Source of the DNA: a virus
Direction: 5' to 3' (one strand)
Length of the DNA stretch: 64,000 nucleotides
Virus record (IMG/VR): IMGVR_UViG_3300032238_000944
Location: 18,926-82,925 of that record
Below are positions 6,023 to 26,614 of this stretch, in pieces. The position numbers and the translations under genes were made by a program. Positions within the stretch are counted from its first letter, which is position 1; every line of letters begins with the position of its first letter. The notes beneath the pieces were generated by a model. It had not been told where the DNA came from. It searched no databases and saw nothing but the letters and a program-made list of their open reading frames with translations.

Positions 6023-6080
6023 CCACTTTACAAACTGTCCACTCAACCTCCCAGGGTCTCTGGGAGGTTTTATAATAGCT
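6023..6080 (+). promoter_or_regulatory. Early promoter cassette 1 with internal stem-loop
   Basis: CCACTT-N6-CTGTCCAC, hairpin 6045-6069, TATAAT 6071 then AGCT. Confidence 0.75.
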
Positions 6081-6098
6081 TCGTGAACTCAGTTTCCT

Positions 6099-6206
6099 AT
6101 GCCTCTGACTGCCACTGAAAAGTTAATTTTTATAGCATCATTCGTCAATTTTCTTCACTGGGGCGCAAAAGTCACGGAATCTGTACTGAATCATGCTATT
6201 TCTTGA
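6099..6206 (+). CDS. Small hypothetical protein (35 aa)
   Basis: MPLTATEKLIFIASFVNFLHWG..., first ORF after the promoter; not in ORF track. Confidence 0.5.
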   Translation: MPLTATEKLIFIASFVNFLHWGAKVTESVLNHAIS

Positions 6207-6612
6207 AATTACTGGTTATAACTGCTCTAAAAGGCGCTGTGAGAGCATTGTAGAGTGGTTCATAGGGAAATACCTTCCCAACCATAAATTGGACGTTGTA
6301 GTGAACCACAGAGGTCTTCTGAGGGAAGGTGTATATGGTTGGTGTACCGTACTAGATTGTGATCATCGTCCAAGGGCTTTTGAAATTGAAATGCATAATC
6401 GTCTGAATGTAGAAGATTATGCTAAGACTTTGTTTCATGAGCTTTGGCATGTGTATCAACATGTACATGGAGATCTTCGTGATAAGTATCAGAAACGTCT
6501 TTGGAAAGGTGTTGATTGTTCTGAGTTGGATTATGATGATCAACCATGGGAACAAGAAGCAAACTCAATGGAATCTCAACTGTACCTGATGTACTTGACA
6601 GAAACCTCATAA
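6193..6612 (+). CDS. Putative zinc metallopeptidase
   Basis: HELWHVYQH (HExxH) plus PWEQEA. Confidence 0.7.
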   Translation: MLFLEITGYNCSKRRCESIVEWFIGKYLPNHKLDVVVNHRGLLREGVYGWCTVLDCDHRPRAFEIEMHNRLNVEDYAKTLFHELWHVYQHVHGDLRDKYQKRLWKGVDCSELDYDDQPWEQEANSMESQLYLMYLTETS

Positions 6613-6623
6613 GTAATTAGAAT
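6595..6623 (+). promoter_or_regulatory. Sigma70-like promoter
   Basis: TTGACA-N17-TAGAAT. Confidence 0.7.
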
Positions 6624-6644
6624 TGCTTTGTCCGGGTTGATGAG

Positions 6645-7157
6645 ATGGCTATAAGTACTTTAGAGAGACACAAATATAATGGCAATGAGATCATCAAGAC
6701 TCGTACATTAACATACGAGCCTTACAGATATTGTGAATATAACATGGCACTGGTGATGGGTTTAATAAGACGCAAACTCACACCAGATTTGCTATCTACA
6801 AGATATCGGGAAGAAAACAAAACAAATCCAACATATGGACATTGCTATCACTCTACACAGGCATTGTTCTATCTGATGGATACTGATAAGTTACAACCAA
6901 TGAGTGGTATTGATTACCGTGGTGAAACTCATTGGTGGTTACAAGATGGAGATAACATTTATGATCTTACTGCGGAGCAGTATCTTTCCGTAGGAAAGTT
7001 GCCACCATATTCTGTAGGTAAGAAAAGTAAATGGTATGGTTGGAAAGGTCGTCCACATCAGAGATCATTGGATCTCATTGTGAGAGTTCTTGGCAATCGG
7101 GTGACAGACACTGTGACAGTTGCCGAAGTGGATGGGGCCTTGACACCTTTCTTTTGA
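6645..7157 (+). CDS. Hypothetical protein
   Basis: 170 aa; GHCYH and HWWL..DLTAEQ suggest a transglutaminase-like C/H/D triad (weak). Confidence 0.65.
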   Translation: MAISTLERHKYNGNEIIKTRTLTYEPYRYCEYNMALVMGLIRRKLTPDLLSTRYREENKTNPTYGHCYHSTQALFYLMDTDKLQPMSGIDYRGETHWWLQDGDNIYDLTAEQYLSVGKLPPYSVGKKSKWYGWKGRPHQRSLDLIVRVLGNRVTDTVTVAEVDGALTPFF

Positions 7158-7173
7158 TCCGTGTATAATAGCC
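7113..7173 (+). promoter_or_regulatory. Early promoter cassette 2
   Basis: GTGACAGTT-N6-GTGGAT, TTGACA 7140-N18-TATAAT 7164 then AGCC. Confidence 0.75.
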
Positions 7174-7239
7174 AGGTAAGCAACGGACGAGAACTTAGTT
7201 CTGCCTTGATTACACACTGTAGTTTACTTAGTTTAACTT

Positions 7240-8412
7240 ATGACAGTTCAAATCCCTTTTATGCCTAGCGAAACTCAACTTGTTTGGGATCGTGTGGCAC
7301 AAACTTGCAACAATCCTTTGGGATTGACCGAAGAGATTCTTCAACAATCTCTTGAAGTTTGTCCCGCTCCTGAATATCAAGGAGCAGAGTATATTGGTCG
7401 ATATCTGGTTCCTCGTTCTTTTGTTCGCTATGATCAAGAAGAACAACCCCGTGATAAAAGTAATGATGCTGATCACGTTAATAATCTAGTCAATAATTTT
7501 GAGACGATTGGTTATCGTCTGGATGCACAACCTCCCATCAGTTGTTTTGATACAAATGATGTAGCATCTACCAAACTCAAAGCACAATCGGGTTATAACC
7601 GAAATGAAGCTTTGGATCGGATTGGTCAAGAACTTTATATCTTCGATGTTTATAAGTTTGAGAGTAGGTTTTGGGAAATTGTTGCTCGCAACCAGTCAAA
7701 TCACCACTCCAATCCTCAACTTAGTCAGTCTATTCAAGACTACATCAAAGAAGTTTGCAATGCTGTGGAAAATGAAATCATTCCTGGTGATGCAGATGCT
7801 ATTTCTGATTTTGTAGATCTGATTGCTACAGATAAAACTGCTAAAGCTCGTAAAAAAATTAAAGTTACTTGCTTTAACAACTGTCAGGTATTTCCTAACT
7901 TCCGTACCTACAATTCTGTTGGTGCTGGTAAAAATACTTTGAATGGATTCATTAAAGAAAATGGATTTGTAAAACAAGGTGTTGAAGGTCGTACTGATGA
8001 AGAGTTGAAAGCACAAGGTTATATTACCTATTGTGCTGGCAATGGTGACAACAAAAGCAGTTGGATGCGAGCACTCTATCACGGAACTCGTTTGGGTCTT
8101 CCCGTGTGGATCTTTGGTTATGCAGCAAATCGTGTAGATAACCTAGAACAGTTCCGTGCAGAATACATCAATGATTTCAATGAATTGAAACAAGTGATGC
8201 TTGAGTTTGCTTTCTCGATTGCTGATGGTGGAGAGCAATCTTCGATTGATGAAGATGCTTTTTGTGTCAAACTCGCTGGATTTTTGCCTCAGTATGTGAA
8301 ACCCAATCCTCAAGATAGGGGTCGTCCTACTGAAAATACATTGGTTGATGTATATGGCAATTCTATTCGGTTTGATCCTGATGGAGATTGTCTGACACTT
8401 TCCCAACCCTGA
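7240..8412 (+). CDS. Hypothetical protein with ParB/Srx-like N-terminal domain
   Basis: QPR..HVNNLVNNFETIG..QPPI...SGYNRNEAL resembles the ParB-N GxxR motif. Confidence 0.55.
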   Translation: MTVQIPFMPSETQLVWDRVAQTCNNPLGLTEEILQQSLEVCPAPEYQGAEYIGRYLVPRSFVRYDQEEQPRDKSNDADHVNNLVNNFETIGYRLDAQPPISCFDTNDVASTKLKAQSGYNRNEALDRIGQELYIFDVYKFESRFWEIVARNQSNHHSNPQLSQSIQDYIKEVCNAVENEIIPGDADAISDFVDLIATDKTAKARKKIKVTCFNNCQVFPNFRTYNSVGAGKNTLNGFIKENGFVKQGVEGRTDEELKAQGYITYCAGNGDNKSSWMRALYHGTRLGLPVWIFGYAANRVDNLEQFRAEYINDFNELKQVMLEFAFSIADGGEQSSIDEDAFCVKLAGFLPQYVKPNPQDRGRPTENTLVDVYGNSIRFDPDGDCLTLSQP

Positions 8413-8413
8413 T

Positions 8414-8473
8414 CCAATTTGTGAACTGTCACACGGGGTCCACACGGACCCCTTTTTGCTGTATAATGGCCAT
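8414..8473 (+). promoter_or_regulatory. Early promoter cassette 3 with terminator-like stem-loop
   Basis: CCAATT-N6-CTGTCACA; GGGGTCC-acac-GGACCCC-TTTTT; TATAAT 8462 then GGCC. Confidence 0.8.
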
Positions 8474-8488
8474 ATCGAAACGAAAGCA

Positions 8489-9712
8489 ATGGAACTTCGC
8501 CCCCATCAACAACGTGCCCTAGATGCTCTCGTAAAGCATGTTATTGGGCAGGTGATCATCCCGACTGGCGGAGGTAAGACCAATGTTGCTATTTTTGATG
8601 CAATCCGTGAGTTTCAGTCTGATGCTCCTAAAACCATCGTAGTGGTTGCCCCGCGCATCCTTCTGGCAGAGCAGTTGTCTAGTGAGTTTCTTGAGTTTAT
8701 CACAAATGTTGCAGTATTGCACGTTCATAGTGGCGAAACTCATCACTTCAACACCACTAAACCTGCTGAGATCTACAACTGGTCTCGTCGTGCATACAAA
8801 CATCAACTGATCTTCACTACCTATAACTCACTCAAGCAACTTGTCACTGCTGGTATTCATGTTGATACCATCTATTTTGATGAGGCACATAATTCTGTGC
8901 AACGTCATTTCTATCCTGCCACTCAACATTTCAGTCAACATGCTGACCGCTGTTACTTTTTTACTGCTACTCCAAAGCATTCTCTTGCTGCTAGTAAACC
9001 TGGAATGAATGATACCCGAGTGTATGGCCAGGTGATTTGCAATGTACCTGCTCCCGAACTTGTAGATGGTGGTTATATTGTACCACCTAAAGTTGTGGTC
9101 AAACAACTACCGATGCTTGGCAAACATGCTCAGGTTGCTGATCGTGACAGCGAGAATCTGTTGGATACCATTGATGAACAAGGTGTCTCTAAGGTTCTCA
9201 TCTGTGCCAAAGCTGTCAAGCAGATTCTCAATCTGGTTGCAGAATCTGACTTCTGCCTGCAACTCCAACAGCGTGGATATTCCTATATGTACATCAGTGC
9301 AAAGACTGGTGGTGTGATTGATGGTCAGAAAGTCAATCGTGAGCAATTCTTTGACACTCTCACTGCATGGGGTAAGGATAACAATAAGAAGTTTGTTGTT
9401 CTACATCACTCCATTCTTTCTGAGGGTATCAATGTCAGTGGACTTGAGGCAGTGATTTTTATGCGCTCCATGGATTACATTGGTATCAGTCAGACTATTG
9501 GCCGTGTGATCCGTTTGCATCATGATGATGCTGCTGGACTGCGCTCTGGTCGTATTGCTCCTGGTGCTGTGCAAGACTATACTAAATCTTTTGGTCTTGT
9601 GTGCATTCCTGTGTTCAATAAGGTTGGCATCAGTACCGCGCAGAAAGTACAGTCGGTTGTTGATACCATCTTTGTTCAAGGTGAACCTGCAATCTCTACC
9701 GTAAGAAGATAA
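8489..9712 (+). CDS. Superfamily 2 (DEAH-type) helicase
   Basis: LRPHQ, PTGGGKT, DEAH, TATP, LSEGIN, QTIGRVIR; start moved to ATG 8489. Confidence 0.9.
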   Translation: MELRPHQQRALDALVKHVIGQVIIPTGGGKTNVAIFDAIREFQSDAPKTIVVVAPRILLAEQLSSEFLEFITNVAVLHVHSGETHHFNTTKPAEIYNWSRRAYKHQLIFTTYNSLKQLVTAGIHVDTIYFDEAHNSVQRHFYPATQHFSQHADRCYFFTATPKHSLAASKPGMNDTRVYGQVICNVPAPELVDGGYIVPPKVVVKQLPMLGKHAQVADRDSENLLDTIDEQGVSKVLICAKAVKQILNLVAESDFCLQLQQRGYSYMYISAKTGGVIDGQKVNREQFFDTLTAWGKDNNKKFVVLHHSILSEGINVSGLEAVIFMRSMDYIGISQTIGRVIRLHHDDAAGLRSGRIAPGAVQDYTKSFGLVCIPVFNKVGISTAQKVQSVVDTIFVQGEPAISTVRR

Positions 9713-9715
9713 CAT

Positions 9716-10156
9716 ATGGAAGTCAAATTCACGCAAAATCATTTTAAAAAGTGTAAAGAAGTAACTTGGGATGATATAGTTGAAAAAATTGATAATGAAT
9801 TTTTTCACCAAACTCATAAAATTATTTGCCCTTCAGATCGTGCTCCAACAATCATTCTTCATAATGATTACTATCCACTATCAATTAAATCTGCATATAA
9901 TGAAGTTGAAACCGAAACTGGTATAAAAGATATGCATATCTATACTTCATTGGGTAGAAATGCTTCAACATTTGGAAGACACTGTGACACAATGGATGTT
10001 TTGATTGTTCAATCTAAAGGAAAAATTGATTATGAATTTGATTGTGGTACAATTGTAAGGATGAGTCCAGGGGATTCTCTTCACATTCCCAAAGGAGTTT
10101 ATCACAATCCAATTGTATCCGAACCTAGAATTACATTGAGTTTCTCTTGGCAATAA
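9716..10156 (+). CDS. JmjC/cupin-like protein
   Basis: FGRHCD, PGDSLHIPKGVYH, RITLSF. Confidence 0.8.
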   Translation: MEVKFTQNHFKKCKEVTWDDIVEKIDNEFFHQTHKIICPSDRAPTIILHNDYYPLSIKSAYNEVETETGIKDMHIYTSLGRNASTFGRHCDTMDVLIVQSKGKIDYEFDCGTIVRMSPGDSLHIPKGVYHNPIVSEPRITLSFSWQ

Positions 10157-10159
10157 ATT

Positions 10160-10699
10160 ATGAAAGACTGGACAATCTACTGTGAGACTACCTACAACAG
10201 TCTCAGGGCCAATATTCACAACTGGGGTAAACCAGAGTTTGCTCGCCCCATCACCAGAATCTACTATATCGGTGTTTTTGATTGCGGTGTGCCCAATCCT
10301 ACGGGTCTGATCAGCGAAAATGCACTCAAAAACAAAAATATAAAACAGAAGGTCGTACATGACCATTATTTGTCTCCACAATTCATTGGACGGATGATTC
10401 TGGACAATCCTGAGGTGTATTTGACCGATTTTGACAAGTTCAAATCGATTTTTTGGCAGTCTTGTCAGACCATCGTGGTCACTCAGCAGGAAAACGATGC
10501 CCTGGCTGCTCTGACATCAAATGATGGTAACATATATAAAGTTCAAGTGCCAACCTATTTGAAGTACAATCATCTTAAGATTAAATTAAATAAACGTCCA
10601 GAAAATACAATCCGATGGAATACTTCAGTTCCAATTGAATCTAACATTCTAGAGGTTCCTGAAGAACTTACACAATATGAAAAGAGGTTTCTAGTATGA
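10160..10699 (+). CDS. Hypothetical protein
   Basis: 179-aa ORF with VVHDHYLSPQF motif. Confidence 0.7.
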   Translation: MKDWTIYCETTYNSLRANIHNWGKPEFARPITRIYYIGVFDCGVPNPTGLISENALKNKNIKQKVVHDHYLSPQFIGRMILDNPEVYLTDFDKFKSIFWQSCQTIVVTQQENDALAALTSNDGNIYKVQVPTYLKYNHLKIKLNKRPENTIRWNTSVPIESNILEVPEELTQYEKRFLV

Positions 10700-10869
10700 G
10701 AGAAGGATTCATCACGGCAGACGGTTATGCGGCTGTCCCCTGGGGCAAAAAAAACCTGATTATCCTGTATAATGGCCATCAGATAGAGACGGTAAGCACA
10801 CCGCTCCAAGCACAAAAGTTCATTAAAAACCACCGCACTAATCCATCCAAAGGAACAGTATTCCTATGA
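10696..10869 (+). CDS. Small hypothetical protein (57 aa)
   Basis: MREGFITADGYAAVPWG...; start and stop overlap both neighbours; not in ORF track. Confidence 0.65.
   Translation: MREGFITADGYAAVPWGKKNLIILYNGHQIETVSTPLQAQKFIKNHRTNPSKGTVFL
10733..10779 (+). promoter_or_regulatory. Early promoter cassette 4 (inside a coding region)
   Basis: CTGTCCCC starts 35 bp before TATAAT 10768, which is followed by GGCCAT. Confidence 0.5.
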
Positions 10870-11273
10870 AACTCCCAGCACTACTATCTCTTGCATTGTT
10901 TGCTCCAATGCCTGTGTTTGCACAACAGACAAACATCTATCAGGTATGTACAACCTATCAAGAGAACTATGCTCCTGGATATTATGATCAGTATGGTAAC
11001 TATCGTCAAGGAAATGTAAGCACTCAGGCTTATAATACTCAGTGTGGTACTGGTACATACTATCGCCCCAATACTGGTGGTACATATTATCCAACACCTG
11101 TTGTAGCTCCAGTTGCACAACCATATCGTAGGTCATGTGCTGCTGCTCCTATTGGCGCTATTCTTGGTGGTTTTGGTGCATACAAAGCAACCAGTAGTGT
11201 ACCCAATCGTTGGTGGTCTGTTCCTCTAGGTGTTGTAACTGGTGGAATTGTTGGAAATGCTCTCTGTAACTAA
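10866..11273 (+). CDS. Secreted/membrane protein with glycine zipper
   Basis: Signal peptide; C-terminal GAILGGFGA and GVVTGGIVGNAL. Confidence 0.7.
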   Translation: MKLPALLSLALFAPMPVFAQQTNIYQVCTTYQENYAPGYYDQYGNYRQGNVSTQAYNTQCGTGTYYRPNTGGTYYPTPVVAPVAQPYRRSCAAAPIGAILGGFGAYKATSSVPNRWWSVPLGVVTGGIVGNALCN

Positions 11274-11274
11274 A

Positions 11275-11469
11275 ATGAAAACTGAGTTTATTTGTGTCAA
11301 ACCTAAATCATCAAAAGCAAAGAATAGATTTGCAAATATGATGGATAGTCTTCATTCTTGTCGTGTTGAACAACGCAAGGATGGTAAAGTCTTTCTTGCA
11401 TCTATTAGTGGTAAATACTTCTTTTGGTTGAATGAAAGCGGTGATGATCATTGGGAAATTATAAAATAA
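11275..11469 (+). CDS. Hypothetical protein
   Basis: MKTEFICVKPKSSKAKNRFANMM..., likely start 11275. Confidence 0.7.
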   Translation: MKTEFICVKPKSSKAKNRFANMMDSLHSCRVEQRKDGKVFLASISGKYFFWLNESGDDHWEIIK

Positions 11470-14729: not shown

Positions 14730-14903
14730 ATGACACTTGCAAAAACTGGTTCGGCAGACCTTACAACCGAAGAATGGAATGAATTAGTTGCACTTAAAGA
14801 AGCAATTAACTATTCTCCACAAACTGTAAGTCCAGAGAAAATGGAAAAGTTTACTGAGCTTATGGTAAGATCCTTAGAAGGTAAAGGAAATAGGCCAGTT
14901 TAA
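14730..14903 (+). CDS. Hypothetical protein
   Basis: MTLAKTG...; 3' end overlaps promoter cassette 5. Confidence 0.65.
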   Translation: MTLAKTGSADLTTEEWNELVALKEAINYSPQTVSPEKMEKFTELMVRSLEGKGNRPV

Positions 14904-14962
14904 GAAGTGGCACATGGCAGTTCCACCTGCTCCCATTTTGCTGTATATTGGCCATGTTGAGA
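14893..14962 (+). promoter_or_regulatory. Early promoter cassette 5
   Basis: GGCCAGTT-N6-GTGGCACA; TATATT 14944 then GGCCATGTTGAGA. Confidence 0.8.
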
Positions 14963-17654: not shown

Positions 17655-17854
17655 TGGCAAACTTCAATGTAGAACAACAAAAAATAATCTATAATGCTGT
17701 TCGTTATTATCAAATCAATCGCGTTACATTAGACAGCAAATTATATAAAGACTGCGATGCAATTCTAAATGAATTATTTCCAACTGTAATACAGCATGTG
17801 CCAGTTGATCAAGAGGCCCCTGCAAACACAACAAAACCTGGAACTACTGTATAG
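17654..17854 (+). CDS. Hypothetical protein
   Basis: MANFNVEQQKIIYNAVRYYQ. Confidence 0.65.
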   Translation: MANFNVEQQKIIYNAVRYYQINRVTLDSKLYKDCDAILNELFPTVIQHVPVDQEAPANTTKPGTTV

Positions 17855-17859
17855 TGGCT
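17798..17859 (+). promoter_or_regulatory. Early promoter cassette 6
   Basis: GTGCCAGTT-N6-GAGGCCCC; TATAGT 17850 then GGCT; ATG 17862 immediately downstream. Confidence 0.65.
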
Positions 17860-17861
17860 AC

Positions 17862-18032
17862 ATGGACAAACAAACTAAATTGTTATTTGCATTGTCACAA
17901 ATTGAAAATGTTTCTAATTTGATTAAAGACAATGAGTATGAAAGTTATCTCATTCGTCATATTATCTCTGTTCAATCTGAATTACAACGTCAGTTGACAA
18001 ATCTTACACAATCCATTACAATTAAGGAGTAA
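17862..18032 (+). CDS. Hypothetical protein
   Basis: MDKQTKLLFALSQIE... Confidence 0.65.
   Translation: MDKQTKLLFALSQIENVSNLIKDNEYESYLIRHIISVQSELQRQLTNLTQSITIKE
17994..18022 (+). promoter_or_regulatory. Sigma70-like promoter
   Basis: TTGACA-N17-TACAAT. Confidence 0.7.
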
Positions 18033-19806: not shown

Positions 19807-19808
19807 TG

Positions 19809-19816: not shown

Positions 19817-19839
19817 CTAATGCCAAACATATAAAGCAG

Positions 19840-20466
19840 ATGGAATACTACACTTACGCTTATTTGCGTGAAAATAGAACACCTTACTACATTGGTAAAG
19901 GTAAAGGTAATAGAGTTTACCAAAAAAATAGAAAATCAATAAACCCACCAAAAGATAAATCTAGAATAATATTTCTAAAACGAAATTTAACTGAAAAGGA
20001 AGCATTTAAACATGAAGTTTATATGATTTCTGTGTTTGGTAGAAAAGATTTGGGTACAGGTATTCTTTATAATCTTACAAATGGTGGAGAGGGAACTTCT
20101 GGAGCAAATAATTCGGGAAAAAGAAACGGTTTCTATCAAAAATCTCATACGGAAGAAACAAAACTAAAAATATCTAAAGCAAAAATTGGAACCAAGTTTC
20201 CTGAAGAATTAAAACCATTAGTATCCAAGAGAACTAAAAAAATGTGGGAAGATGGTGGTGTGTTTTCTACACCAAAGTTTAGACAAAAACTATCACAATC
20301 TTTATGCAAAAAGCAATATCAACTTACTAATGAAGAAGGGGAGGTATATTATACTAATAACATAGTGCTATTTTCCAAAGAACACAATTTAGATTACAGT
20401 TCAATGTACAAAGTTGTTAAAGGAAAACTAAAGTATTATAAAGGATGGGTAGGAAAAATCATATGA
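19840..20466 (+). CDS. GIY-YIG (Seg-like) homing endonuclease with NUMOD3 motif
   Basis: YYTYAYLRE..PYYIGKG..R, YNLTNGGEG, HTEETKLKISKA. Confidence 0.85.
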   Translation: MEYYTYAYLRENRTPYYIGKGKGNRVYQKNRKSINPPKDKSRIIFLKRNLTEKEAFKHEVYMISVFGRKDLGTGILYNLTNGGEGTSGANNSGKRNGFYQKSHTEETKLKISKAKIGTKFPEELKPLVSKRTKKMWEDGGVFSTPKFRQKLSQSLCKKQYQLTNEEGEVYYTNNIVLFSKEHNLDYSSMYKVVKGKLKYYKGWVGKII

Positions 20467-20498
20467 CTGGAACGATAAATATATAAAAAACGAAATAA

Positions 20499-20717
20499 AT
20501 GAAAACGTTTCAACAATTTCAAGAACAGTTGGAAAGAGGTAGATTAACTCCAGCAACACCTGCACAAACACAACAACAACGTGTTTCAAGTGTAAAGAGA
20601 GCAAGCATGATTGCTACAAAGATGCGTGGTCGTGCATCAGATGAATTAGATTCTCATCAATCCAACATGAGAACACTACTCAAAAAGTCTGGAGAAGATA
20701 TTAAAGGGGCCCACTAA
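20499..20717 (+). CDS. Putative capsid internal protein
   Basis: MKTFQQFQE N-terminus; ATAAATA 20475-20481. Confidence 0.55.
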   Translation: MKTFQQFQEQLERGRLTPATPAQTQQQRVSSVKRASMIATKMRGRASDELDSHQSNMRTLLKKSGEDIKGAH

Positions 20718-20780
20718 TCAGGCTGTCCACTATTCTCCCCAAATGCCCTCAGAACCTGTATATTGGCCATGTTCTGAGGG
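20711..20780 (+). promoter_or_regulatory. Early promoter cassette 7
   Basis: CCACTA-N6-CTGTCCAC; TATATT 20759 then GGCC; 10-bp inverted repeat flanks the -10. Confidence 0.8.
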
Positions 20781-20787
20781 ATTTCTA

Positions 20788-20922: not shown

Positions 20923-21047
20923 TGCCTGACACCTATTCGTTCTCTGGTGATGCTGTAACATTCCTGGGCCTGGTTGGAGTTATCTCCACGGCAATTATTA
21001 TGGTTACAGTGTATAAACGTTACTGGAACTCTCCCTACCGCAAATAA
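20922..21047 (+). CDS. Small membrane protein (41 aa)
   Basis: MPDTYSFSGDAVTFLGLVGVISTAII...; not in ORF track. Confidence 0.6.
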   Translation: MPDTYSFSGDAVTFLGLVGVISTAIIMVTVYKRYWNSPYRK

Positions 21048-21049
21048 TC

Positions 21050-21358
21050 ATGGCAACTTGGCAAGCAGATGTATTCGTAAACTCACAAGTTGGGCGAATC
21101 AAAACTGAAGTAGAGGCAGCATCATTTGCTGGTGCCAAACAACAAATCTATGCAAAGCATGGTGATGTTCAGCAAATCACTAATTTACAACAAGTAAGGT
21201 CATCTTCGTTATCTTCGAGTTCTAGCAGCTCAGATAGTGGTGGCGGAGCAATCTTGTTACTCGGATTCATTGTCATTGCGTTAATTATGAACTATTGGTA
21301 TTATATTGTACCAGCAGCTATTATAATTGGTTTGCTTTGGTGGTTTGCAAATAAATGA
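21050..21358 (+). CDS. Hypothetical membrane protein
   Basis: Ser linker then two TM segments. Confidence 0.7.
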   Translation: MATWQADVFVNSQVGRIKTEVEAASFAGAKQQIYAKHGDVQQITNLQQVRSSSLSSSSSSSDSGGGAILLLGFIVIALIMNYWYYIVPAAIIIGLLWWFANK

Positions 21359-21537
21359 CAATGAATGTAACCGAACATAACATCAGTGATTGGGAGTTGA
21401 GTAATAGTGAAATTGAAGAGATCATTCGTCTCACTAAACTTGAGATGAAAAAGTATCCTGAAGATAAAGAAACTCAAATGTTCTATGGTATGATAGTTGG
21501 AAAGCTTATGATCATGAAGAATAATGAGGACACTTGA
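21355..21537 (+). CDS. Hypothetical protein
   Basis: ATGA-coupled. Confidence 0.65.
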   Translation: MTMNVTEHNISDWELSNSEIEEIIRLTKLEMKKYPEDKETQMFYGMIVGKLMIMKNNEDT

Positions 21538-21590
21538 AGAACTGTCACAAGGGCCCTTGCAAGAGGGTCTTTTTGCTGTATGATGGCCAC
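21528..21590 (+). promoter_or_regulatory. Early promoter cassette 8 with stem-loop
   Basis: GGACACTT-N6-CTGTCACA; GGGCCCT/AGGGTCT hairpin plus T-run; TATGAT 21579 then GGCC. Confidence 0.8.
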
Positions 21591-22487
21591 ATGAAGAACA
21601 CACACCTTAACCATCCTGAAGATGAAGTTCTTAATGGCAAAGATGCTGCCAAAAATGTTATTAAGTTTTTGCGTGAACGTAACTCTACATTGAGTGTAAA
21701 ATACGATGGAAGTCCAGCTGTAGTTTGGGGCACTTGTCCTTTCACTGGTTGGTTCTTTGTAGGCACAAAAAGTGTCTTCAACAAGAAGAAAATCAAGATC
21801 AATTATTCTCACTATGATATTGAAGTAAATCATGGTGATGTACCAAAGGTTGCATCAATTCTTCATGTTTGCTTTGACAATCTTCCTCGCATCAAAGGTA
21901 TTGTCCAGGGTGATTTCATCGGTTTCGGTGGTAATGACTTCTACAAGCCTAACACGATTGAGTATAACTTCGGTCGTCTTGTGAATGAGAATGTAATCAT
22001 TGCTGCTCATACATCCTACAACAGTTCTACTCATCTCAAAGATGCAATTGCGTCATTCGGTGTCAATGAGGAACTGCAATCTCCCAATGTTAAGTTTCTG
22101 AATACCAATGCACAGTTTGCCTCCCGTCGTCGTAGAATTGATTTGCTTTGTAGTCTTGCAAGTGTGGCTATCAATTTTGTTAAGTTCCCTGATGCAAAAG
22201 AGGGACAAGAACTCAAGATAGCCATCAATCGTTGTATTCGTGAACAACGTGACATTGCAGAGTCTGGTATGAACAACAATCTCGCAATTCTCTACAAACT
22301 GATCATTGAGATCAAAGAATTGCTGATGGAAGGTATTGTATCTGATGAAAATGTTGAGTGTTACATTGGCAATGACAAATGTGATCATGAGGGTTATGTC
22401 ATGACCAATGAGTTTGGTACATTCAAATTTGTCAATCGTGAAGTCTTCAGTTATAATAACTTTGTGCGTCCTAAGAGTTGGTCATGA
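21591..22487 (+). CDS. Ligase-like covalent nucleotidyltransferase (DUF6267-like)
   Basis: SVKYDG (motif I KxDG), QGD, HEGYV, FKFVNR; start moved to ATG 21591. Confidence 0.6.
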   Translation: MKNTHLNHPEDEVLNGKDAAKNVIKFLRERNSTLSVKYDGSPAVVWGTCPFTGWFFVGTKSVFNKKKIKINYSHYDIEVNHGDVPKVASILHVCFDNLPRIKGIVQGDFIGFGGNDFYKPNTIEYNFGRLVNENVIIAAHTSYNSSTHLKDAIASFGVNEELQSPNVKFLNTNAQFASRRRRIDLLCSLASVAINFVKFPDAKEGQELKIAINRCIREQRDIAESGMNNNLAILYKLIIEIKELLMEGIVSDENVECYIGNDKCDHEGYVMTNEFGTFKFVNREVFSYNNFVRPKSWS

Positions 22488-23041
22488 AATATAAAAATGT
22501 ATCTACAAGTGATGGAAAAGTTATTCACATTTATGATGAGGTTTTTTCTGAATTTGAAAAAAGTTTTCATGAAAAGTTTTGTTTTGAATCTAATTTTAGA
22601 TTAAGTTGGCAGTCATTTTTGTTGCCTTATTTTAGATGTAATCTTAGTGAAGAAGATGTAAAAAACTTTCGTTTTTTTGATAATGAAAACATCGTTAATA
22701 TAATTAAAAATCATGTGGGGGAAAATGTTAAAGTAATTGCAAGCTGGATTATTGTTACAACACCCTCTTTGATTCCTTACAATTTTCATCATGATGCCAC
22801 TGATGATGATAAAGATAATCAAAAAATCATTTTATATTATGTAAATAATGAATGGAATCGTAATTGGCACGGTCAAACATTATATGCAAATGACAATGGT
22901 GAATGTGAAATTGCAGTAGAATATAAACCGGGAAGAATTACTGTATATGATGCAAAAACTTGTCACGCTTCGGGTCCAATTACAAGTCCTACTTCTAAAC
23001 CAAAGTTTATTTTTGCGATGCACTTAGAATCTCAATCTTAA
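22484..23041 (+). CDS. 2OG-Fe(II) oxygenase
   Basis: FHHD, ILYYVNNEW..WHGQT, PGRITVYD..H. Confidence 0.8.
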   Translation: MKYKNVSTSDGKVIHIYDEVFSEFEKSFHEKFCFESNFRLSWQSFLLPYFRCNLSEEDVKNFRFFDNENIVNIIKNHVGENVKVIASWIIVTTPSLIPYNFHHDATDDDKDNQKIILYYVNNEWNRNWHGQTLYANDNGECEIAVEYKPGRITVYDAKTCHASGPITSPTSKPKFIFAMHLESQS

Positions 23042-23072
23042 AATGGTAAATAGAAAATAAAGAGTATCACAA

Positions 23073-23366
23073 ATGGAAGAACAGATTGAGATTACAAATG
23101 GCATCAATCATCACACTTGTTCATCACTTGAGGAAGCATACATTCTAGGGCAGCATTATGCAACAGAATTGCAAGGGGAAATCACAATTTTCGTAAATGG
23201 TGCAAAAGTTGATACAATCGCACCACAAAATAGATCATCTGAATTGTTTGGAGAGATTCCACCTAATCTAGAAGAAATGATTGCTGATGGTTATAATCCT
23301 AACGCAAAAGATGGTGACGGTGATGGACTCTTACAGGATGGCACAAAATGGGAAAGGCCAGTTTGA
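23073..23366 (+). CDS. Acidic protein with DxDxDG loop
   Basis: KDGDGDGLLQDGT; TAAATA at 23047. Confidence 0.65.
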   Translation: MEEQIEITNGINHHTCSSLEEAYILGQHYATELQGEITIFVNGAKVDTIAPQNRSSELFGEIPPNLEEMIADGYNPNAKDGDGDGLLQDGTKWERPV

Positions 23367-23434
23367 GGGCTGTCCACCATTTCACCCACTGGCAGCCAAA
23401 TGATGTATATTGGCCATGTTGAGAGATGAATCAC
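23356..23434 (+). promoter_or_regulatory. Early promoter cassette 9 (direct repeat copy A)
   Basis: GGCCAGTT-N6-CTGTCCAC; TATATT 23406 then GGCC; 59/64 identical to 24175-24238. Confidence 0.85.
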
Positions 23435-23665
23435 ATGGATCGCAAGTTTCACACCGTCAGCATTGAAGATCGTGAGATGTTTGCTTATAATGCTGCCTAC
23501 AACAAATCGAAGGCAGAGATTGCACGAATCAACGCACATCCTGAACAGCGTATGAAATATTGTTTTGAGTTTATGACACATGCTGATGACGAAATGCGTG
23601 TGAAATGCTACAACGCAATCGCAAAGTATTCCGCACAACTTGACTACTCCGAAGCACACTTCTGA
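23426..23665 (+). CDS. Hypothetical early protein
   Basis: First ORF after the promoter; start 23426 or 23435. Confidence 0.7.
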   Translation: MNHMDRKFHTVSIEDREMFAYNAAYNKSKAEIARINAHPEQRMKYCFEFMTHADDEMRVKCYNAIAKYSAQLDYSEAHF

Positions 23666-23686
23666 ATCCTTCACTAACACAAATCC

Positions 23687-23962
23687 ATGCTCGATTACCT
23701 CTGCATTTGTTTCGGTCATTCTGACATTCCGAACCACTGGTATAACATGAAGAGTCGTCATTCGACTGCTCGTGCTGCTGAAAGATTCGGTCTTGATAAT
23801 ATGTGTGTGGCAGGACAATTTGGTTTCGTTGTGATTGAAGAGACCAAAGATACCTGGAAGGTGTTAGATGATCGTTCGATGTTGCCTCCTTCTGGTTATA
23901 GTATTGGTTGCAACAATACCAACCTTTATGTTCAACCTGCTCCCCAACTTGTTCTTGTTTGA
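23687..23962 (+). CDS. Hypothetical early protein
   Basis: 91-aa ORF. Confidence 0.7.
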   Translation: MLDYLCICFGHSDIPNHWYNMKSRHSTARAAERFGLDNMCVAGQFGFVVIEETKDTWKVLDDRSMLPPSGYSIGCNNTNLYVQPAPQLVLV

Positions 23963-24102
23963 TGATGATGATGACTGATGATGAACTGTTTCGTAATCTC
24001 CTTGCCACATTGATTTGTGAGGATAAGTTAGAAGAATGGGAAACAAAAGCCGCTGAGTTAGAGTTACCATTGGACTACTACATTCAGGAGTTTGTAGGAT
24101 GA
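23962..24102 (+). CDS. Small acidic protein
   Basis: MMMMTDDELF...AAELELPLDYYIQEFV. Confidence 0.6.
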   Translation: MMMMTDDELFRNLLATLICEDKLEEWETKAAELELPLDYYIQEFVG

Positions 24103-24158
24103 AAGCTACGGTCTTTGCATTAGTCTGTCTTGGAATTGGTCAGGCAATTCTAATCAGT

Positions 24159-24238
24159 GTGCCAGTTCCCGAAGTGTCCACCATTTCACCCACTGGGTCT
24201 CAAATGATGTATATTGGCCATGTTAAGAGATGAATCAC
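24159..24238 (+). promoter_or_regulatory. Early promoter cassette 10 (direct repeat copy B)
   Basis: GTGCCAGTT-N6-GTGTCCAC; TATATT 24210 then GGCC. Confidence 0.85.
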
Positions 24239-24241
24239 CAA

Positions 24242-24406
24242 ATGCGAATTGATGTCAAATGCCATGCTGCTCCCTGGGAGAATACCACCACTGATGTGGA
24301 TCGTGCCTATGATCTCGCATATGATTTGAGTGAAGAATACCAATGCGATGTGGATCTTCGCTATAATGAAACTGGCATCATTTTCACCACTGTTTCTAAC
24401 TATTGA
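24242..24406 (+). CDS. Hypothetical early protein (54 aa)
   Basis: MRIDVKCHAAPWENTTTD..AYDLAYDLSEEY; not in ORF track. Confidence 0.65.
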   Translation: MRIDVKCHAAPWENTTTDVDRAYDLAYDLSEEYQCDVDLRYNETGIIFTTVSNY

Positions 24407-24409
24407 ATC

Positions 24410-24610
24410 ATGAAAAACATGACTTTTGTTGAAGGATTGATCGCATCTGGTTATGTATTTGATGATGAGAACTATGATGGTTGTTATGTAAAACAAGATG
24501 CAGATGGTTTCATTCATTGTTATCAAGAAGGAGAAGATGAAGGTGAATGGAATTATGTGAAAATGACTGATGAGTTTGATATTATCACTGAGAAAACATT
24601 TGCACTCTGA
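24410..24610 (+). CDS. Acidic hypothetical protein
   Basis: 66 aa, D/E-rich. Confidence 0.7.
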   Translation: MKNMTFVEGLIASGYVFDDENYDGCYVKQDADGFIHCYQEGEDEGEWNYVKMTDEFDIITEKTFAL

Positions 24611-24873
24611 TGATCTATTCAAATCTGTCAAAGATCAAACCAAAACTGAGAACAACTGGTCGCGTCTCTGGTAACTTTGGACGCAACAAAGTTCAAGCAG
24701 GTTCTTCACTTAATGAGATTGGAATGAGTACCAAAGAGACAATCAAATGTACCACACAAGATGAATATCTGAAGCGTCTACATGATGCCTTTGATCATAC
24801 CACAGATTCAAAACTGCGTCAGTTCATTTATACTGAGATTCGCAAGATTCATGTTCAACGCGGGACATGGTGA
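24610..24873 (+). CDS. Hypothetical protein
   Basis: Coupled ORF. Confidence 0.7.
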   Translation: MIYSNLSKIKPKLRTTGRVSGNFGRNKVQAGSSLNEIGMSTKETIKCTTQDEYLKRLHDAFDHTTDSKLRQFIYTEIRKIHVQRGTW

Positions 24874-24939
24874 CAGTCTGACAAGTGGCACAAGGCCCCT
24901 TGTGGACAGCCCCCATCTCATGTATTATGGCCACATGAG
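24870..24939 (+). promoter_or_regulatory. Early promoter cassette 11
   Basis: GTGACAGTC-N6-GTGGCACA; TATTAT 24923 then GGCC. Confidence 0.8.
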
Positions 24940-24986
24940 GGAAAGGGATTGCCCCAAACCTCACACTTCACTCGCTAATCACTCTC

Positions 24987-25310
24987 ATGCGTAAGATTGA
25001 ACAACTGATGAATGATGCAATTTCCAACAAGAAAGATTGGAAACTTGCTAACACTTGTGTCGAGTATTTCAGTGGTCATGATATTTCTCGTGTGTATCTG
25101 CATGACAATTTGATTGCTGAGATTGGTCCTACTTATGTTCAACTGTTCGATGGTGGATGGCAAACCAACACCACCAAATCGCGTCTCAATGCTATTCTTT
25201 CTGCACACGGATTGCCTGGAGAAGGTGTATTCCAAAAGAACTTTAATTGGTTCTTTCAGTCTCATGACTATGGCACGATTCCTTTCTTTTCAGGTATGCG
25301 AATTGCCTGA
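24987..25310 (+). CDS. Conserved phage early hypothetical protein
   Basis: MRKIE..VYLHDNLIA..DGGWQTNTTKSRLNAIL. Confidence 0.75.
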   Translation: MRKIEQLMNDAISNKKDWKLANTCVEYFSGHDISRVYLHDNLIAEIGPTYVQLFDGGWQTNTTKSRLNAILSAHGLPGEGVFQKNFNWFFQSHDYGTIPFFSGMRIA

Positions 25311-25348
25311 TTCTTTGTTCACCTTTTTCACAAACTTCGATTGATAAA

Positions 25349-25522
25349 ATGACTGACAACAAACTTGAAATGTTGAGTGCTCGTGAACAACTTATGAGCG
25401 ATATTGATTGTATCATCGAAAGTTTCTTTTATGATACCTGGGGCGATGAATACAACGAAGAACAACAAGAATTGGTGAAAACCTTGTGTGATGCTGTCTG
25501 TGCAAACTTTCCTTCTAAATGA
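25349..25522 (+). CDS. Hypothetical protein (57 aa)
   Basis: MTDNKLEMLSAREQLMSDID...LCDAVCANFP; not in ORF track. Confidence 0.65.
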   Translation: MTDNKLEMLSAREQLMSDIDCIIESFFYDTWGDEYNEEQQELVKTLCDAVCANFPSK

Positions 25523-25686
25523 CAATGACTAACACCAAAGATCTTTATTATACTGATGCCAAAGATGGCAAAGAACGTATGATTCAAGTTCCCGAAAATC
25601 TTGCATGGATTATGGTTCAGTCAATGCACATTGCTGGTGTTGATGCTTATATTGATCTCACTCCTACTGATACCATTGCTGCCTAA
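25519..25686 (+). CDS. Hypothetical protein (55 aa)
   Basis: ATGA-coupled; not in ORF track. Confidence 0.55.
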   Translation: MTMTNTKDLYYTDAKDGKERMIQVPENLAWIMVQSMHIAGVDAYIDLTPTDTIAA

Positions 25687-25690
25687 TCTC

Positions 25691-25924
25691 ATGATCATTC
25701 CAATTCTAAACAAACGTGGAAACACTCCCAAACCTTATCAAATCTCAAAGGAGAAAGTAGATCATAAAGAAGGAAGATTTATCGTCTGGAAGTATCACAA
25801 AAAAGTCATTGTGAATCATCAAGTGATGTACAAGTATTCACCGATTCGATATGATCAAGAACTCGCAAGGTTTAAGACAATGAAAGATGCAAAAGAGTTT
25901 GGACGTTATATCGTAGGACTATGA
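25691..25924 (+). CDS. Basic hypothetical protein
   Basis: MIIPILNKRG...; start moved to 25691. Confidence 0.6.
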   Translation: MIIPILNKRGNTPKPYQISKEKVDHKEGRFIVWKYHKKVIVNHQVMYKYSPIRYDQELARFKTMKDAKEFGRYIVGL

Positions 25925-26091
25925 GTAAGGTTATCGCATTGCATCACACAGAGGTTATACTTCTGAGAACAGATCAGGTTCATTTTATCAAGAATCTGTT
26001 ACGAGACTATGTGATAAGAACTGATAACAAAAGAAAATGTAATGATGCCATTCACATTCTTACTACTATTAGTAAGCAGTTAAATGATTAA
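25921..26091 (+). CDS. Hypothetical protein (56 aa)
   Basis: ATGA-coupled; not in ORF track. Confidence 0.5.
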   Translation: MSKVIALHHTEVILLRTDQVHFIKNLLRDYVIRTDNKRKCNDAIHILTTISKQLND

Positions 26092-26126
26092 AAAAGCCTT
26101 TTTTTAATTAAGCTGAGTTTAAGAAG

Positions 26127-26168
26127 TTTTCCACAAGCTGTTGAAAATTATGTGTTAATTGTGGAAAA
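26127..26168. promoter_or_regulatory. Cluster of DnaA-box-like 9-mers
   Basis: TTTTCCACA 26127-35 (+), TTTTCAACA 26139-47 (-), TTTTCCACA 26160-68 (-). Confidence 0.55.
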
Positions 26169-26246
26169 CATTGATACTTTAAAGCCCTTGGTTGTTGTGC
26201 ATTAGGACCCTTATAAACCCTTCTAGTCCTTGTGATCTTTGCGTGC

Positions 26247-26275
26247 AAGCTATCACAACCGCACAAAAATGTCAA
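26247..26275 (-). promoter_or_regulatory. Minus-strand sigma70-like promoter
   Basis: TTGACA-N17-TAGCTT with extended TGn. Confidence 0.55.
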
Positions 26276-26302
26276 GGCCCCTGATAAATACTCCCATGCC
26301 CC

Positions 26303-26336
26303 TTGACATAACCGCACAGGGGGGATTATACTGGCC
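26303..26336 (+). promoter_or_regulatory. Sigma70-like early promoter 12 (no upstream palindrome)
   Basis: TTGACA-N18-TATACT then GGCC. Confidence 0.75.
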
Positions 26337-26363
26337 ACAGTACAACAAACCCTCCGAGGTCTT

Positions 26364-26531
26364 ATGTCAGTTTCCTACCTTCAAGCTCAGAAAAAGCATG
26401 TGCGTGTGACACTGGATCTTTCAGTTTACAGTGACTTCGATGCCCGACAGATTGACTATGCAAAACTATTCGGATTGGATGGAGATGAGTCAGTCTCAGT
26501 ATACGTGGAGGACATGGAGATTGACTGGTAG
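26364..26531 (+). CDS. Hypothetical protein (55 aa)
   Basis: MSVSYLQAQKKHVRVTLDL...; GAGG RBS; not in ORF track. Confidence 0.65.
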   Translation: MSVSYLQAQKKHVRVTLDLSVYSDFDARQIDYAKLFGLDGDESVSVYVEDMEIDW

Positions 26532-26541
26532 CTTATAACGA

Positions 26542-26614
26542 TGTGACAGTTGTAGAAGTGTCACAGTAAATGAGCACAACCCCCTCAGATGATGTATATT
26601 AGCCATGTTGAGAG
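26542..26614 (+). promoter_or_regulatory. Early promoter cassette 13
   Basis: TGTGACAGTTgtagaaGTGTCACA; TATATT 26595 then AGCCATGTTGAGAG. Confidence 0.85.

What the first reader, a model, noticed from the sequence alone, without database searches (positions are those of the whole stretch)
6023..26614. Early promoters with an invariant RGCY (mostly GGCC) directly after the -10 box: possible methylation-controlled switch
Seen: in all 13 promoters of this family the 4 bp after the -10 hexamer are RGCY. GGCC occurs at 8468, 10774, 14950, 20765, 21585, 23412, 24216, 24929 and 26333; AGCC at 7170 and 26601; GGCT at 17856; AGCT at 6077. The -10 itself varies (TATAAT/TATATT/TATGAT/TATTAT/TATAGT/TATACT), and the genome is AT-rich. 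Four ordinary TTGACA promoters (6595, 13310, 17994, 27744) lack the site. Known: GGCC is methylated by a conserved cyanobacterial methyltransferase (M.Ssp6803II, m4C), and GC-rich discriminators also confer stringent control. Inference: early transcription could be gated by the methylation state of incoming versus newly replicated DNA, or by host methylase status.
Basis: partly seen in the sequence, partly recalled or inferred. Interest (0 to 1): 0.85.

Follow-up and report, generated by a model that had tools for sequence, protein, structure and literature searches.

The report
Cyanophage early promoters with RGCY discriminator
A freshwater T4-like cyanophage repeats an early-promoter cassette in which the four bases after the -10 box are always purine-G-C-pyrimidine; the pattern is real and selected, but it more likely tunes how host RNA polymerase opens these promoters than acts as a GGCC-methylation switch.

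Summary
Observation confirmed. All 13 sites are as described, and a 14th lies upstream of the window. Of 28 TGTATNNT words on the coding strand, 11 are followed by RGCY (0.08 expected); none of 41 on the other strand is.

The sites belong to an early-promoter cassette (two upstream boxes, weak -35, TG, -10, RGCY, A-Y-R start) that is widespread in T4-like cyanophages and resembles PeSLs.

The conserved unit is RGCY, not GGCC. Freshwater relatives carry AGCC, AGCT or GGCT at orthologous promoters, and a complete 249-kb relative uses mostly AGCC. Marine orthologues carry AT-rich 4-mers instead.

I found no cytosine methyltransferase in this fragment or in the complete relative. Such enzymes are sporadic in the likely host family, Cyanobiaceae.

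Positions -6 to -3 are exactly the cyanobacterial 'GC discriminator', which governs supercoiling and ppGpp sensitivity. That is my best reading (about 0.45). A methylation switch gets about 0.15.

New and unexplained: RGCY words are among the most avoided 4-mers in marine relatives. This phage avoids AGCY but not GGCC, which may explain its GGCC bias.

The scan found the same pattern earlier on another genome (e1-5904456) and reached a similar verdict.

The parts
6011..6083 (+). Cassette 1: box CTGTCCAC, hairpin plus T-run, -10 TATAAT 6071-6076, AGCT 6077-6080. Weakest member: no TG and no -35.
   Evidence: hairpin -17.6 kcal/mol, z -3.2
7104..7176 (+). Cassette 2: TTGACA-N18-TG-TATAAT 7164-7169, AGCC 7170-7173. 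The -35 lies inside the 3' end of ORF 6645-7157.
8402..8474 (+). Cassette 3: box CTGTCACA, terminator hairpin, TG-TATAAT 8462-8467, GGCC 8468-8471. Lies upstream of the helicase gene (ATG 8489).
   Evidence: hairpin z -3.3; orthologues in 9 freshwater relatives carry AGCT
10708..10780 (+). Cassette 4: box CTGTCCCC, TG-TATAAT 10768-10773, GGCC 10774-10777.
14884..14956 (+). Cassette 5: boxes GGCCAGTT and GTGGCACA, TG-TATATT 14944-14949, GGCC 14950-14953, then ATGTTGAGA.
   Evidence: orthologues carry AGCC
17790..17862 (+). Cassette 6: TG-TATAGT 17850-17855, GGCT 17856-17859, then AC and ATG at 17862 (candidate leaderless start).
20699..20771 (+). Cassette 7: box CTGTCCAC, TG-TATATT 20759-20764, GGCC 20765-20768.
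21519..21593 (+). Cassette 8: box CTGTCACA, hairpin plus T-run, TG-TATGAT 21579-21584, GGCC 21585-21588, AC, then ATG 21591 of a DUF6267 gene. The 6-nt gap between the -10 and the ATG is kept in many relatives, which suggests a leaderless mRNA.
23346..23418 (+). Cassette 9: boxes GGCCAGTT and CTGTCCAC, TG-TATATT 23406-23411, GGCC 23412-23415, then ATGTTGAGAG.
   Evidence: orthologues keep GGCC
24150..24222 (+). Cassette 10: boxes GTGCCAGTT and GTGTCCAC, TG-TATATT 24210-24215, GGCC 24216-24219, then ATGTTAAGAG.
   Evidence: GGCC kept in 5 relatives while the spacer diverges
24863..24935 (+). Cassette 11: boxes GTGACAGTC and GTGGCACA, -35-like TTGTGG, TG-TATTAT 24923-24928, GGCC 24929-24932. Lies upstream of the Kyano_Gp96 gene.
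   Evidence: the G001 orthologue carries AGCC
26267..26339 (+). Cassette 12: TTGACA-N17-TATACT 26327-26332 (no TG), GGCC 26333-26336.
26535..26607 (+). Cassette 13: boxes GTGACAGTT and GTGTCACA, TG-TATATT 26595-26600, AGCC 26601-26604, then ATGTTGAGAG.
   Evidence: the G001 orthologue also carries AGCC

Best explanation
The sites are core parts of a repeated early-promoter cassette in a freshwater T4-like cyanophage (family Kyanoviridae; likely host Cyanobium-type picocyanobacteria). Host RNA polymerase with its main sigma factor is inferred to read the cassette.

Cassette layout: box A (GNCAGTT), 6 nt, box B (CTGKCACA or CTGTCCAC, at about -48 to -41), a G-rich run, a weak -35 (TTGnnn), TG, the -10 hexamer, RGCY at -6 to -3, A at -2, and a pyrimidine-purine start.

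RGCY is the discriminator. The purine at -6 is common to all cyanomyovirus cassettes. The G-C-pyrimidine at -5 to -3 is specific to the freshwater clade and is kept by selection.

Inferred mechanism: a GC-rich block without any pyrimidine-purine step, placed right after the -10, raises the cost of extending the transcription bubble, while G at -5 and -6 offers the usual contact for sigma region 1.2. This would set the early promoters apart as one kinetic class whose firing depends on negative supercoiling and on ppGpp or energy state, as GC discriminators do in bacteria including Synechocystis.

This phage's preference for GGCC among the four RGCY words most likely follows from its own genome-wide avoidance of AGCC, GGCT and AGCT, not from GGCC methylation.

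Shown: the anatomy, the conservation, the interchange among RGCY words, and the word statistics. Inferred: promoter activity, start sites, and the kinetic role.
For: Positional enrichment: p 3e-21, coding strand only.

Intergenic placement before small ORFs, in a block syntenic with Syn9 gp69-gp93, which sits ahead of the baseplate genes.

Promoter logic: 11 of 14 copies have TG, and two of the three without it have a perfect TTGACA at 17 nt.

The cassette recurs as 94 distinct copies across relatives and Syn9.

Anchoring only on the downstream ATGTTGAGA module, 27 of 27 distinct freshwater promoters are RGCY, while the -10 and spacers vary. Marine copies of the same module carry ATAA.

Orthologous promoters swap only within RGCY.

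The purine at -6 is general: 78 of 87 non-RGCY cassettes have it. RGCY promoters rarely have the consensus -10 (5 of 27 TATAAT, against 51 of 87), which suggests the -10 and discriminator interact.

In Synechocystis the 'GC discriminator' is exactly -6 to -3. AT there marks relaxation-induced promoters; GC marks supercoiling dependence and ppGpp repression (PMC9825172; PMC8422995).

Variant use tracks word avoidance. G000 has AGCC and AGCT at O/E 0.52 and GGCC at 1.38, with 10 of 14 promoters GGCC. G001 has 0.82, 1.05 and 1.06, and most of its promoters are AGCC.
Against: There are no start-site or expression data: no RNA run holds this DNA.

GC-richness alone does not explain why only RGCY occurs and never GCGC, GGGC or CCGG.

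C at -4 is not the sigma 1.2 optimum known from E. coli and Thermus (GGG).

Host promoters of Synechocystis show no GGCC enrichment in the discriminator.

The same relative, G001, also runs a second cassette family with ACTC, and marine relatives use AT-rich 4-mers, so RGCY is not needed for promoter function.

The exact match between the promoter word and the word class purged from marine relatives (RGCY) would be a coincidence under this reading.

It is uncertain whether injected linear phage DNA is supercoiled.

Part of the conservation could come from gene conversion between cassettes.
Confidence: 0.45

Rival explanations
1. Methylation gate. A host methyltransferase modifies the cytosine in GGCC, or in all RGCY. 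Methylated virion DNA fires its early promoters, and newly replicated unmethylated DNA fires them less, which gives an automatic early shut-off or a readout of the previous host.
For: Direct precedent at the same promoter position: hemJ of Synechocystis needs GG(m4)CC in its discriminator, and promoters with GGCC in the discriminator are consistently down in the methylase knockout.

All four RGCY words are strongly avoided in marine relatives, so some enzyme in this phage-host world reads RGCY as a unit.

G000 avoids AGCY but not GGCC, as expected if GGCC were protected by methylation.
Against: GGCC is interchangeable with AGCC, AGCT and GGCT at orthologous promoters. 17 of 27 distinct clade promoters, and 8 of 13 in G001, are not GGCC.

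No PF01555 or PF00145 methylase in G000 or in the complete relative G001.

These families occur in only 18 and 9 of 81 sampled Cyanobiaceae genomes.

I know of no bacterial RGCY methylase; the known one is the chlorovirus M.CviJI (from memory).

The effect size in Synechocystis is modest, about -0.5 log2.
Confidence: 0.15
2. Protein site. RGCY, or the degenerate palindrome T-RGCY-A that includes the last -10 base, is bound, nicked or cut by a dedicated phage or host protein. That protein could be a repressor that ends early transcription, or a nuclease that promotes recombination between cassettes (modular shuffling).
For: The degeneracy is symmetric: R at -6, Y at -3, flanked by T at -7 and A at -2 in 13 of 14 copies.

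RGCY as a set is purged from marine relatives.

In RGCY-poor relatives, nearly all remaining RGCY sit at one fixed position of a second early-gene motif.

Cassettes bound the gene modules, and a NUMOD3-type endonuclease gene lies in the region.
Against: No candidate protein was identified.

The purine at -6 is general to all cassette families, so the symmetry may be accidental.

Usage is asymmetric: A at -6 in 17 of 27 copies but T at -3 in only 4 of 27.

A nuclease that cuts its own early promoters is hard to reconcile with an intact packaged genome.
Confidence: 0.12
3. No function of its own. RGCY is carried along because the stretch from the -10 to about +12 is homogenised among cassettes by gene conversion or recombination, as proposed for PeSLs. 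Each family then simply keeps its founder's 4-mer.
For: Other families also keep a family-typical 4-mer next to a family-typical leader, for example ACTC plus TCATACACA in G001.

The conserved block runs on into ATGTTGAGAG.
Against: Within the block, -10 positions 4 and 5 and the purine and pyrimidine ends of RGCY vary freely, while G at -5 and C at -4 never do in more than 40 distinct promoters.

The marine family keeps its leader but lets the 4-mer vary.

Orthologues keep RGCY across genomes whose spacers have diverged.

RGCY is kept in G000 against a two-fold genome-wide avoidance of AGCY.
Confidence: 0.15

Closest known systems
PeSLs (promoter-early stem-loops) of T4-like phages RB49/phi1, PST/T4 and nt-1/KVP40 (Arbiol 2010, PMC2839356; Comeau 2014, PMC4122927)
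   Same: A short composite regulatory cassette with a sigma-70-type early promoter, repeated many times between small non-essential ORFs of a hyperplastic region. It has family-specific consensus sequences and is sometimes fused to a terminator hairpin.
   Different: Only 3 of 13 copies here have a strong hairpin plus T-run. Two extra upstream boxes and a fixed discriminator are not part of the PeSL description. PeSL-mediated recombination was not tested. A paper on S-PM2 found few PeSLs in that cyanophage (PMC4503421).
Early-gene regulatory element of cyanophage Syn9 and P-TIM40 (Doron et al. 2016, ISME J 10:1437; paper not held, abstract recalled from memory)
   Same: T4-like cyanophages. 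The element sits in front of clusters of small early ORFs. Syn9 carries box A, box B, TG-TATTCT, ATAA, GAGTCAAAG copies at 48574, 51016 and 53012, in the syntenic gp69-gp93 block.
   Different: I could not read the published motif, so identity with box A and box B is not shown. Syn9 has ATAA or ATAG, not RGCY, after the -10.
Synechocystis hemJ (slr1790) promoter with GG(m4)CC in the discriminator, methylated by M.Ssp6803II (bioRxiv 10.1101/2024.08.20.608618 and 10.64898/2026.10.20.760421)
   Same: GGCC lies directly after the -10 and before the start site, and promoter output depends on what sits there.
   Different: That is a host gene with strictly GGCC and a known cognate methylase. Here the unit is RGCY, no methylase was found in the phage, and the host's methylases are unknown.
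GC-rich discriminator of stringent and supercoiling-sensitive promoters (Travers 1980; Forquet 2021, PMC8422995; Behle 2022, PMC9825172)
   Same: Same positions (-6 to -3, after the conserved T at -7). High GC in an AT-rich setting.
   Different: The classical element is defined by composition. Here the sequence is fixed base by base (R-G-C-Y).
CviJI-type recognition site RG^CY of chlorovirus restriction-modification systems (from memory)
   Same: The same degenerate 4-mer. All four words are jointly avoided in marine cyanomyoviruses.
   Different: No CviJI-like enzyme was identified in cyanophages or their hosts. The link is by word only.

Membership tests
PeSL (promoter-early stem-loop cassette) | Strong sigma-70-like early promoter | tested here: inconclusive
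   The -10 is good (TATAAT-like with an adjacent TG), but the -35 is consensus in only 3 of 14 copies. The generic scan picks out only 7170 and 8468. There are no start-site data.
PeSL (promoter-early stem-loop cassette) | Adjacent stem-loop that can terminate transcription | tested here: not met
   Only 3 of 13 copies (6077, 8468, 21585) fold better than shuffles and carry a T-run. The other ten have z between -1.1 and +2.4. Relatives have hairpins more often.
PeSL (promoter-early stem-loop cassette) | Many copies between small ORFs of a hyperplastic region | tested here: met
   13 copies in 21 kb of small, mostly unassigned ORFs, all in intergenic gaps on the coding strand. The block is syntenic with Syn9 gp69-gp93.
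PeSL (promoter-early stem-loop cassette) | Indels and gene swaps between close relatives bounded by the cassettes | not tested
   I saw only that orthologous genes sit behind different cassette types in different relatives. Breakpoints were not mapped.
Methylation-sensitive promoter of the hemJ / M.Ssp6803II type | GGCC within the discriminator | tested here: met
   9 of 13 copies in the window, plus the 14th copy.
Methylation-sensitive promoter of the hemJ / M.Ssp6803II type | The methylatable word is what is conserved | tested here: not met
   Orthologues carry AGCT, AGCC or GGCT. The clade tally is AGCC 13, GGCC 10, AGCT 4.
Methylation-sensitive promoter of the hemJ / M.Ssp6803II type | Cognate cytosine methyltransferase present in phage or host | tested here: inconclusive
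   Phage: none in G000 or the complete G001. Host family: PF01555 in 18 of 81 genomes and PF00145 in 9 of 81. The actual host and the enzymes' specificities are unknown.
Methylation-sensitive promoter of the hemJ / M.Ssp6803II type | Site methylated in vivo and activity dependent on it | not testable with these tools
   Only assembled contigs are available. There are no kinetic or modified-base data.
GC-discriminator (supercoiling- and ppGpp-sensitive) promoter | GC-rich -6 to -3 after the conserved T at -7 | tested here: met
   75-100% GC at -6 to -3 in 13 of 14 copies (AGCT at 6077 is 50%), in a 35% GC genome. The positions match the Synechocystis definition.
GC-discriminator (supercoiling- and ppGpp-sensitive) promoter | Unstable open complex; response to relaxation or ppGpp | not testable with these tools
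   Needs in vitro transcription or reporters.

The most novel reading that the evidence does not exclude
RGCY is read as one word by a dedicated enzyme of the cyanophage-host world: a methyltransferase, a nuclease, or a derived DNA-binding protein. That is why marine cyanomyoviruses purge all four RGCY words while still keeping them at fixed places in early-gene control motifs. In this freshwater clade, the modification or occupancy state of RGCY at -6 to -3 would then gate early transcription, for example incoming versus newly replicated DNA.
Probability: 0.15. Interest if true: 0.85.

Novelty: new variant of a known kind. Interest (0 to 1): 0.5.

Why it matters
How T4-like cyanophages start and stop early transcription is poorly understood, because they lack the T4 proteins Alt, Mod, AsiA and MotA. 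This work points to a clade-wide, base-specific discriminator at exactly the positions that set supercoiling and ppGpp sensitivity in cyanobacteria. That gives a concrete, testable handle on whether early phage transcription is tied to host energy state, light or dark, or DNA modification.

The joint avoidance of all four RGCY words in marine relatives points to an unidentified RGCY-specific enzyme that shapes cyanophage genomes. The way promoter spelling tracks that avoidance supports this. I found no report of it: one full-text search for 'cyanophage' plus 'GGCC' returned nothing relevant.

Tried and rejected
- RNA evidence: no RNA holder was listed for this DNA, so there are no start sites.
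- Rfam, window 5500-28500 at E up to 0.1: no match.
- The generic promoter/terminator scan does not discriminate: 90 promoter-like sites against 74 in shuffles.
- Doron 2016 could not be read by DOI or PMC id. Papers that cite it gave no motif.
- A second GGCC 33-57 nt upstream in 8 cassettes is not special. GGCC (8) is no commoner there than CCCC (12), GGGG (8) or GCCC (8).
- The few remaining RGCY sites in 12 marine loci do not cluster behind -10 boxes.
- I tried to find the M.Ssp6803II orthologue through Synechocystis salina as a yardstick for host enzymes. Only a weak 28-bit PF01555 match turned up, so the specificity of host methylases could not be assigned.
- Host psbA upstream regions gave no informative discriminator.
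- No further family members exist in the contig beyond the 14.

Full report
**What the DNA is.** The window is bases 18926-82925 of an 82,925-bp IMG/VR virus record that CheckV rates 38% complete. GC content is 35%. It encodes T4-type baseplate and tail-fibre proteins. Its gp6 is at most 60% identical to those of Synechococcus and Prochlorococcus myoviruses. Its words recur in freshwater metagenomes from several studies. A close relative, G001, is a complete 248,835-bp genome. The psbA of G001 is 94% identical to that of freshwater Cyanobium MAGs. So this is a fragment of a freshwater T4-like cyanophage, probably infecting picocyanobacteria of the family Cyanobiaceae.

**Observation.** A 14th copy lies 10.8 kb upstream of the window.
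- Of 28 TGTATNNT words on the coding strand, 11 are followed by RGCY, against 0.08 expected (p 3e-21). None of 41 on the other strand is.
- RGCY peaks sharply at offset 0 after TATNNT.
- All copies lie in short gaps between + strand ORFs.
- The copies are not recent duplicates. Their spacers cannot be aligned, while G at -5 and C at -4 never vary.

**Anatomy.** The alignment and relatives show a longer cassette:
- box A (GNCAGTT), into which upstream ORFs often run and stop;
- 6 nt, then box B (CTGKCACA or CTGTCCAC) at about -48 to -41;
- a G-rich run and a weak -35 (TTGnnn) 16-18 nt before the -10;
- TG abutting the -10 hexamer;
- RGCY, then A, then a pyrimidine-purine start.

Two of the three copies without TG have a perfect TTGACA, which is the classic compensation. 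Downstream there is either a shared leader (ATGTTGAGAG, which contains a Shine-Dalgarno-like GAGAGG) or an ATG exactly 6 nt after the -10. That 6-nt spacing is kept in many relatives of the gene at 21591, which suggests a leaderless mRNA. Only 3 of 13 copies have a strong hairpin plus T-run. There is no Rfam match.

**Relatives.** Anchoring on box A plus box B finds 94 distinct cassette promoters in 80 related loci, G001 and Syn9. In Syn9 the copies sit in the syntenic block of small ORFs gp69-gp93, ahead of the baseplate genes. The 4-mer after the -10 depends on lineage.
- In the freshwater clade it is always RGCY. Anchoring only on the downstream ATGTTGAGA module gives AGCC 13, GGCC 10 and AGCT 4 among 27 distinct promoters, plus one GGTCG variant in L058.
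- Marine copies of the same module carry ATAA. Other marine families carry variable purine-led, AT-rich 4-mers.
- G001 has two families side by side: TATAAT-ACTC-TCATACACA and TATCTT-RGCC-ATGTTGAGAG.
- At orthologous promoters the words swap only within RGCY. Site 8468 (GGCC here) is AGCT in nine relatives. Sites 14950 and 24929 are AGCC. Site 21585 is GGCC or GGCT. Sites 23412 and 24216 stay GGCC, and 26601 stays AGCC.

The conserved unit is therefore RGCY, not GGCC.

**Methylation.** The idea has a real precedent at the same promoter position. The Synechocystis hemJ promoter needs GG(m4)CC in its discriminator. Promoters with GGCC in the discriminator are consistently down in the M.Ssp6803II knockout. 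Against the idea here:
- most clade promoters are AGCY, which a GGCC methylase cannot modify;
- neither PF01555 nor PF00145 occurs in this fragment or in the complete relative;
- in 81 genomes of the likely host family, these families reach their cut-offs in only 18 and 9 genomes.

Methylation itself cannot be tested with these tools.

**Discriminator reading.** A purine at -6 is general to all cassette families: 78 of 87 non-RGCY cassettes have it. RGCY promoters seldom have the consensus -10 (5 of 27 TATAAT, against 51 of 87), which points to an interplay inside the polymerase-promoter contact. In Synechocystis the 'GC discriminator' is defined as exactly -6 to -3, after the conserved T at -7. 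AT there marks relaxation-induced promoters, and GC goes with supercoiling dependence and ppGpp repression. Supercoiling also varies over the day in cyanobacteria (PMC9825172; PMC8422995).

RGCY is the class of GC-core 4-mers without any weak pyrimidine-purine step, which would explain a strand-symmetric rule without a dedicated protein; this point is my inference. I therefore read RGCY as a base-specific GC discriminator that makes the early promoters one kinetic class tied to host DNA topology and energy state. This reading does not explain why other GC-rich words never occur. It also rests on no expression data.

**An unexpected link.** All four RGCY words are among the most avoided 4-mers in marine relatives (Markov-2 O/E).

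| Sequence set | RGCY O/E | Other notes |
|---|---|---|
| 185 kb of marine early-region loci | AGCC/GGCT 0.04, GGCC 0.08, AGCT 0.09 | |
| Syn9 | 0.24-0.34 | |
| Two further marine genomes | 0.41-0.68, ranks 2-7 of 136 | |
| All three marine genomes (Syn9 and the two above) | | CCGG is almost absent |

In several RGCY-poor relatives, nearly all remaining RGCY sit at one fixed place in a second early-gene motif, CTG-R-RGCY-YY-TAAASTGTCC-N-RTAGT-ATG.

This phage itself avoids AGCC/GGCT and AGCT two-fold (ranks 2 and 3 of 136) but not GGCC. The same holds inside and outside the early region. G001 avoids none of them and spells most of its promoters AGCC.

What reads RGCY is unknown.

**Comparison and verdict.** The nearest described architecture is the PeSL cassette of T4-like phages. 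The hairpin criterion is met by only a minority of copies here, and recombination was not tested. The scan had already met this pattern on another genome (e1-5904456), and that follow-up reached a similar conclusion. My analysis agrees and adds four things: the two-family contrast, the marine ATAA counterparts, the RGCY avoidance, and the match to the cyanobacterial GC discriminator.

The finding is real and selected, but it is a new variant of a known kind. The methylation switch is possible but unlikely.

Noticed in passing
Relatives L019, L022, L025, L028, L033, L053, L056, L064, L067 (IMG/VR); Syn9 (W01); G004; G005: All four RGCY words are jointly among the most avoided 4-mers in marine cyanomyoviruses: O/E 0.04-0.09 in early-region loci and 0.24-0.68 genome-wide. 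CCGG is almost absent (0-10 counts, both strands, per genome). This suggests an RGCY-specific and a CCGG-specific nuclease pressure of unknown source.
   Followed up: partly
Whole contig G000 (window and 18.9 kb upstream): This phage avoids AGCC/GGCT (O/E 0.52), AGCT (0.52) and CATG (0.46; 0.30 outside the early region), but not GGCC (1.38). CGATCG occurs once in 83 kb.
   Followed up: partly
window 21579-21593 and 17850-17864; relatives L007-L086: The ATG lies exactly 6 nt after the -10 hexamer. For the DUF6267 gene this spacing is kept across relatives with quite different promoters, which suggests leaderless early mRNAs.
   Followed up: partly
L012-L016, L047, L050-L053, L056, L068, L072-L077, L081-L084: A second promoter-like motif sits directly before the same orthologous early genes: CTG-R-RGCY-YY-TAAA(G/C)TGTCC-N-(A/G)TAGT-ATG. 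It shares the TGTCC core with box B. In RGCY-poor loci it holds nearly all remaining RGCY words. It may be the published early element of Syn9-type phages, but I could not check this.
   Followed up: partly
G001 (L087-L099), reverse-strand coordinates 640-10690 and 247327: The complete relative has a second cassette family (box CTGGCACA, TATAAT, ACTC, TCATACACA; 8 copies) next to the RGCC family. That gives two promoter classes in one genome, possibly different timing classes.
   Followed up: no
window 6011-26607, box A of each cassette: Upstream ORFs tend to end inside box A (for example TGA in GTGTGACAG, or TAA/TGA in CAGTTTAA/CAGTTTGA). At 7170 the -35 TTGACA lies inside the coding end of ORF 6645-7157. 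The cassette seems to supply stop codons in several frames.
   Followed up: partly
window 19840-20466: ORF with a NUMOD3 motif (homing-endonuclease-type DNA-binding module) inside the early region. It has no RGCY cassette in front of it.
   Followed up: no
window 31612-43650: A single 4012-aa ORF directly after the gp6 baseplate gene. Not examined.
   Followed up: no
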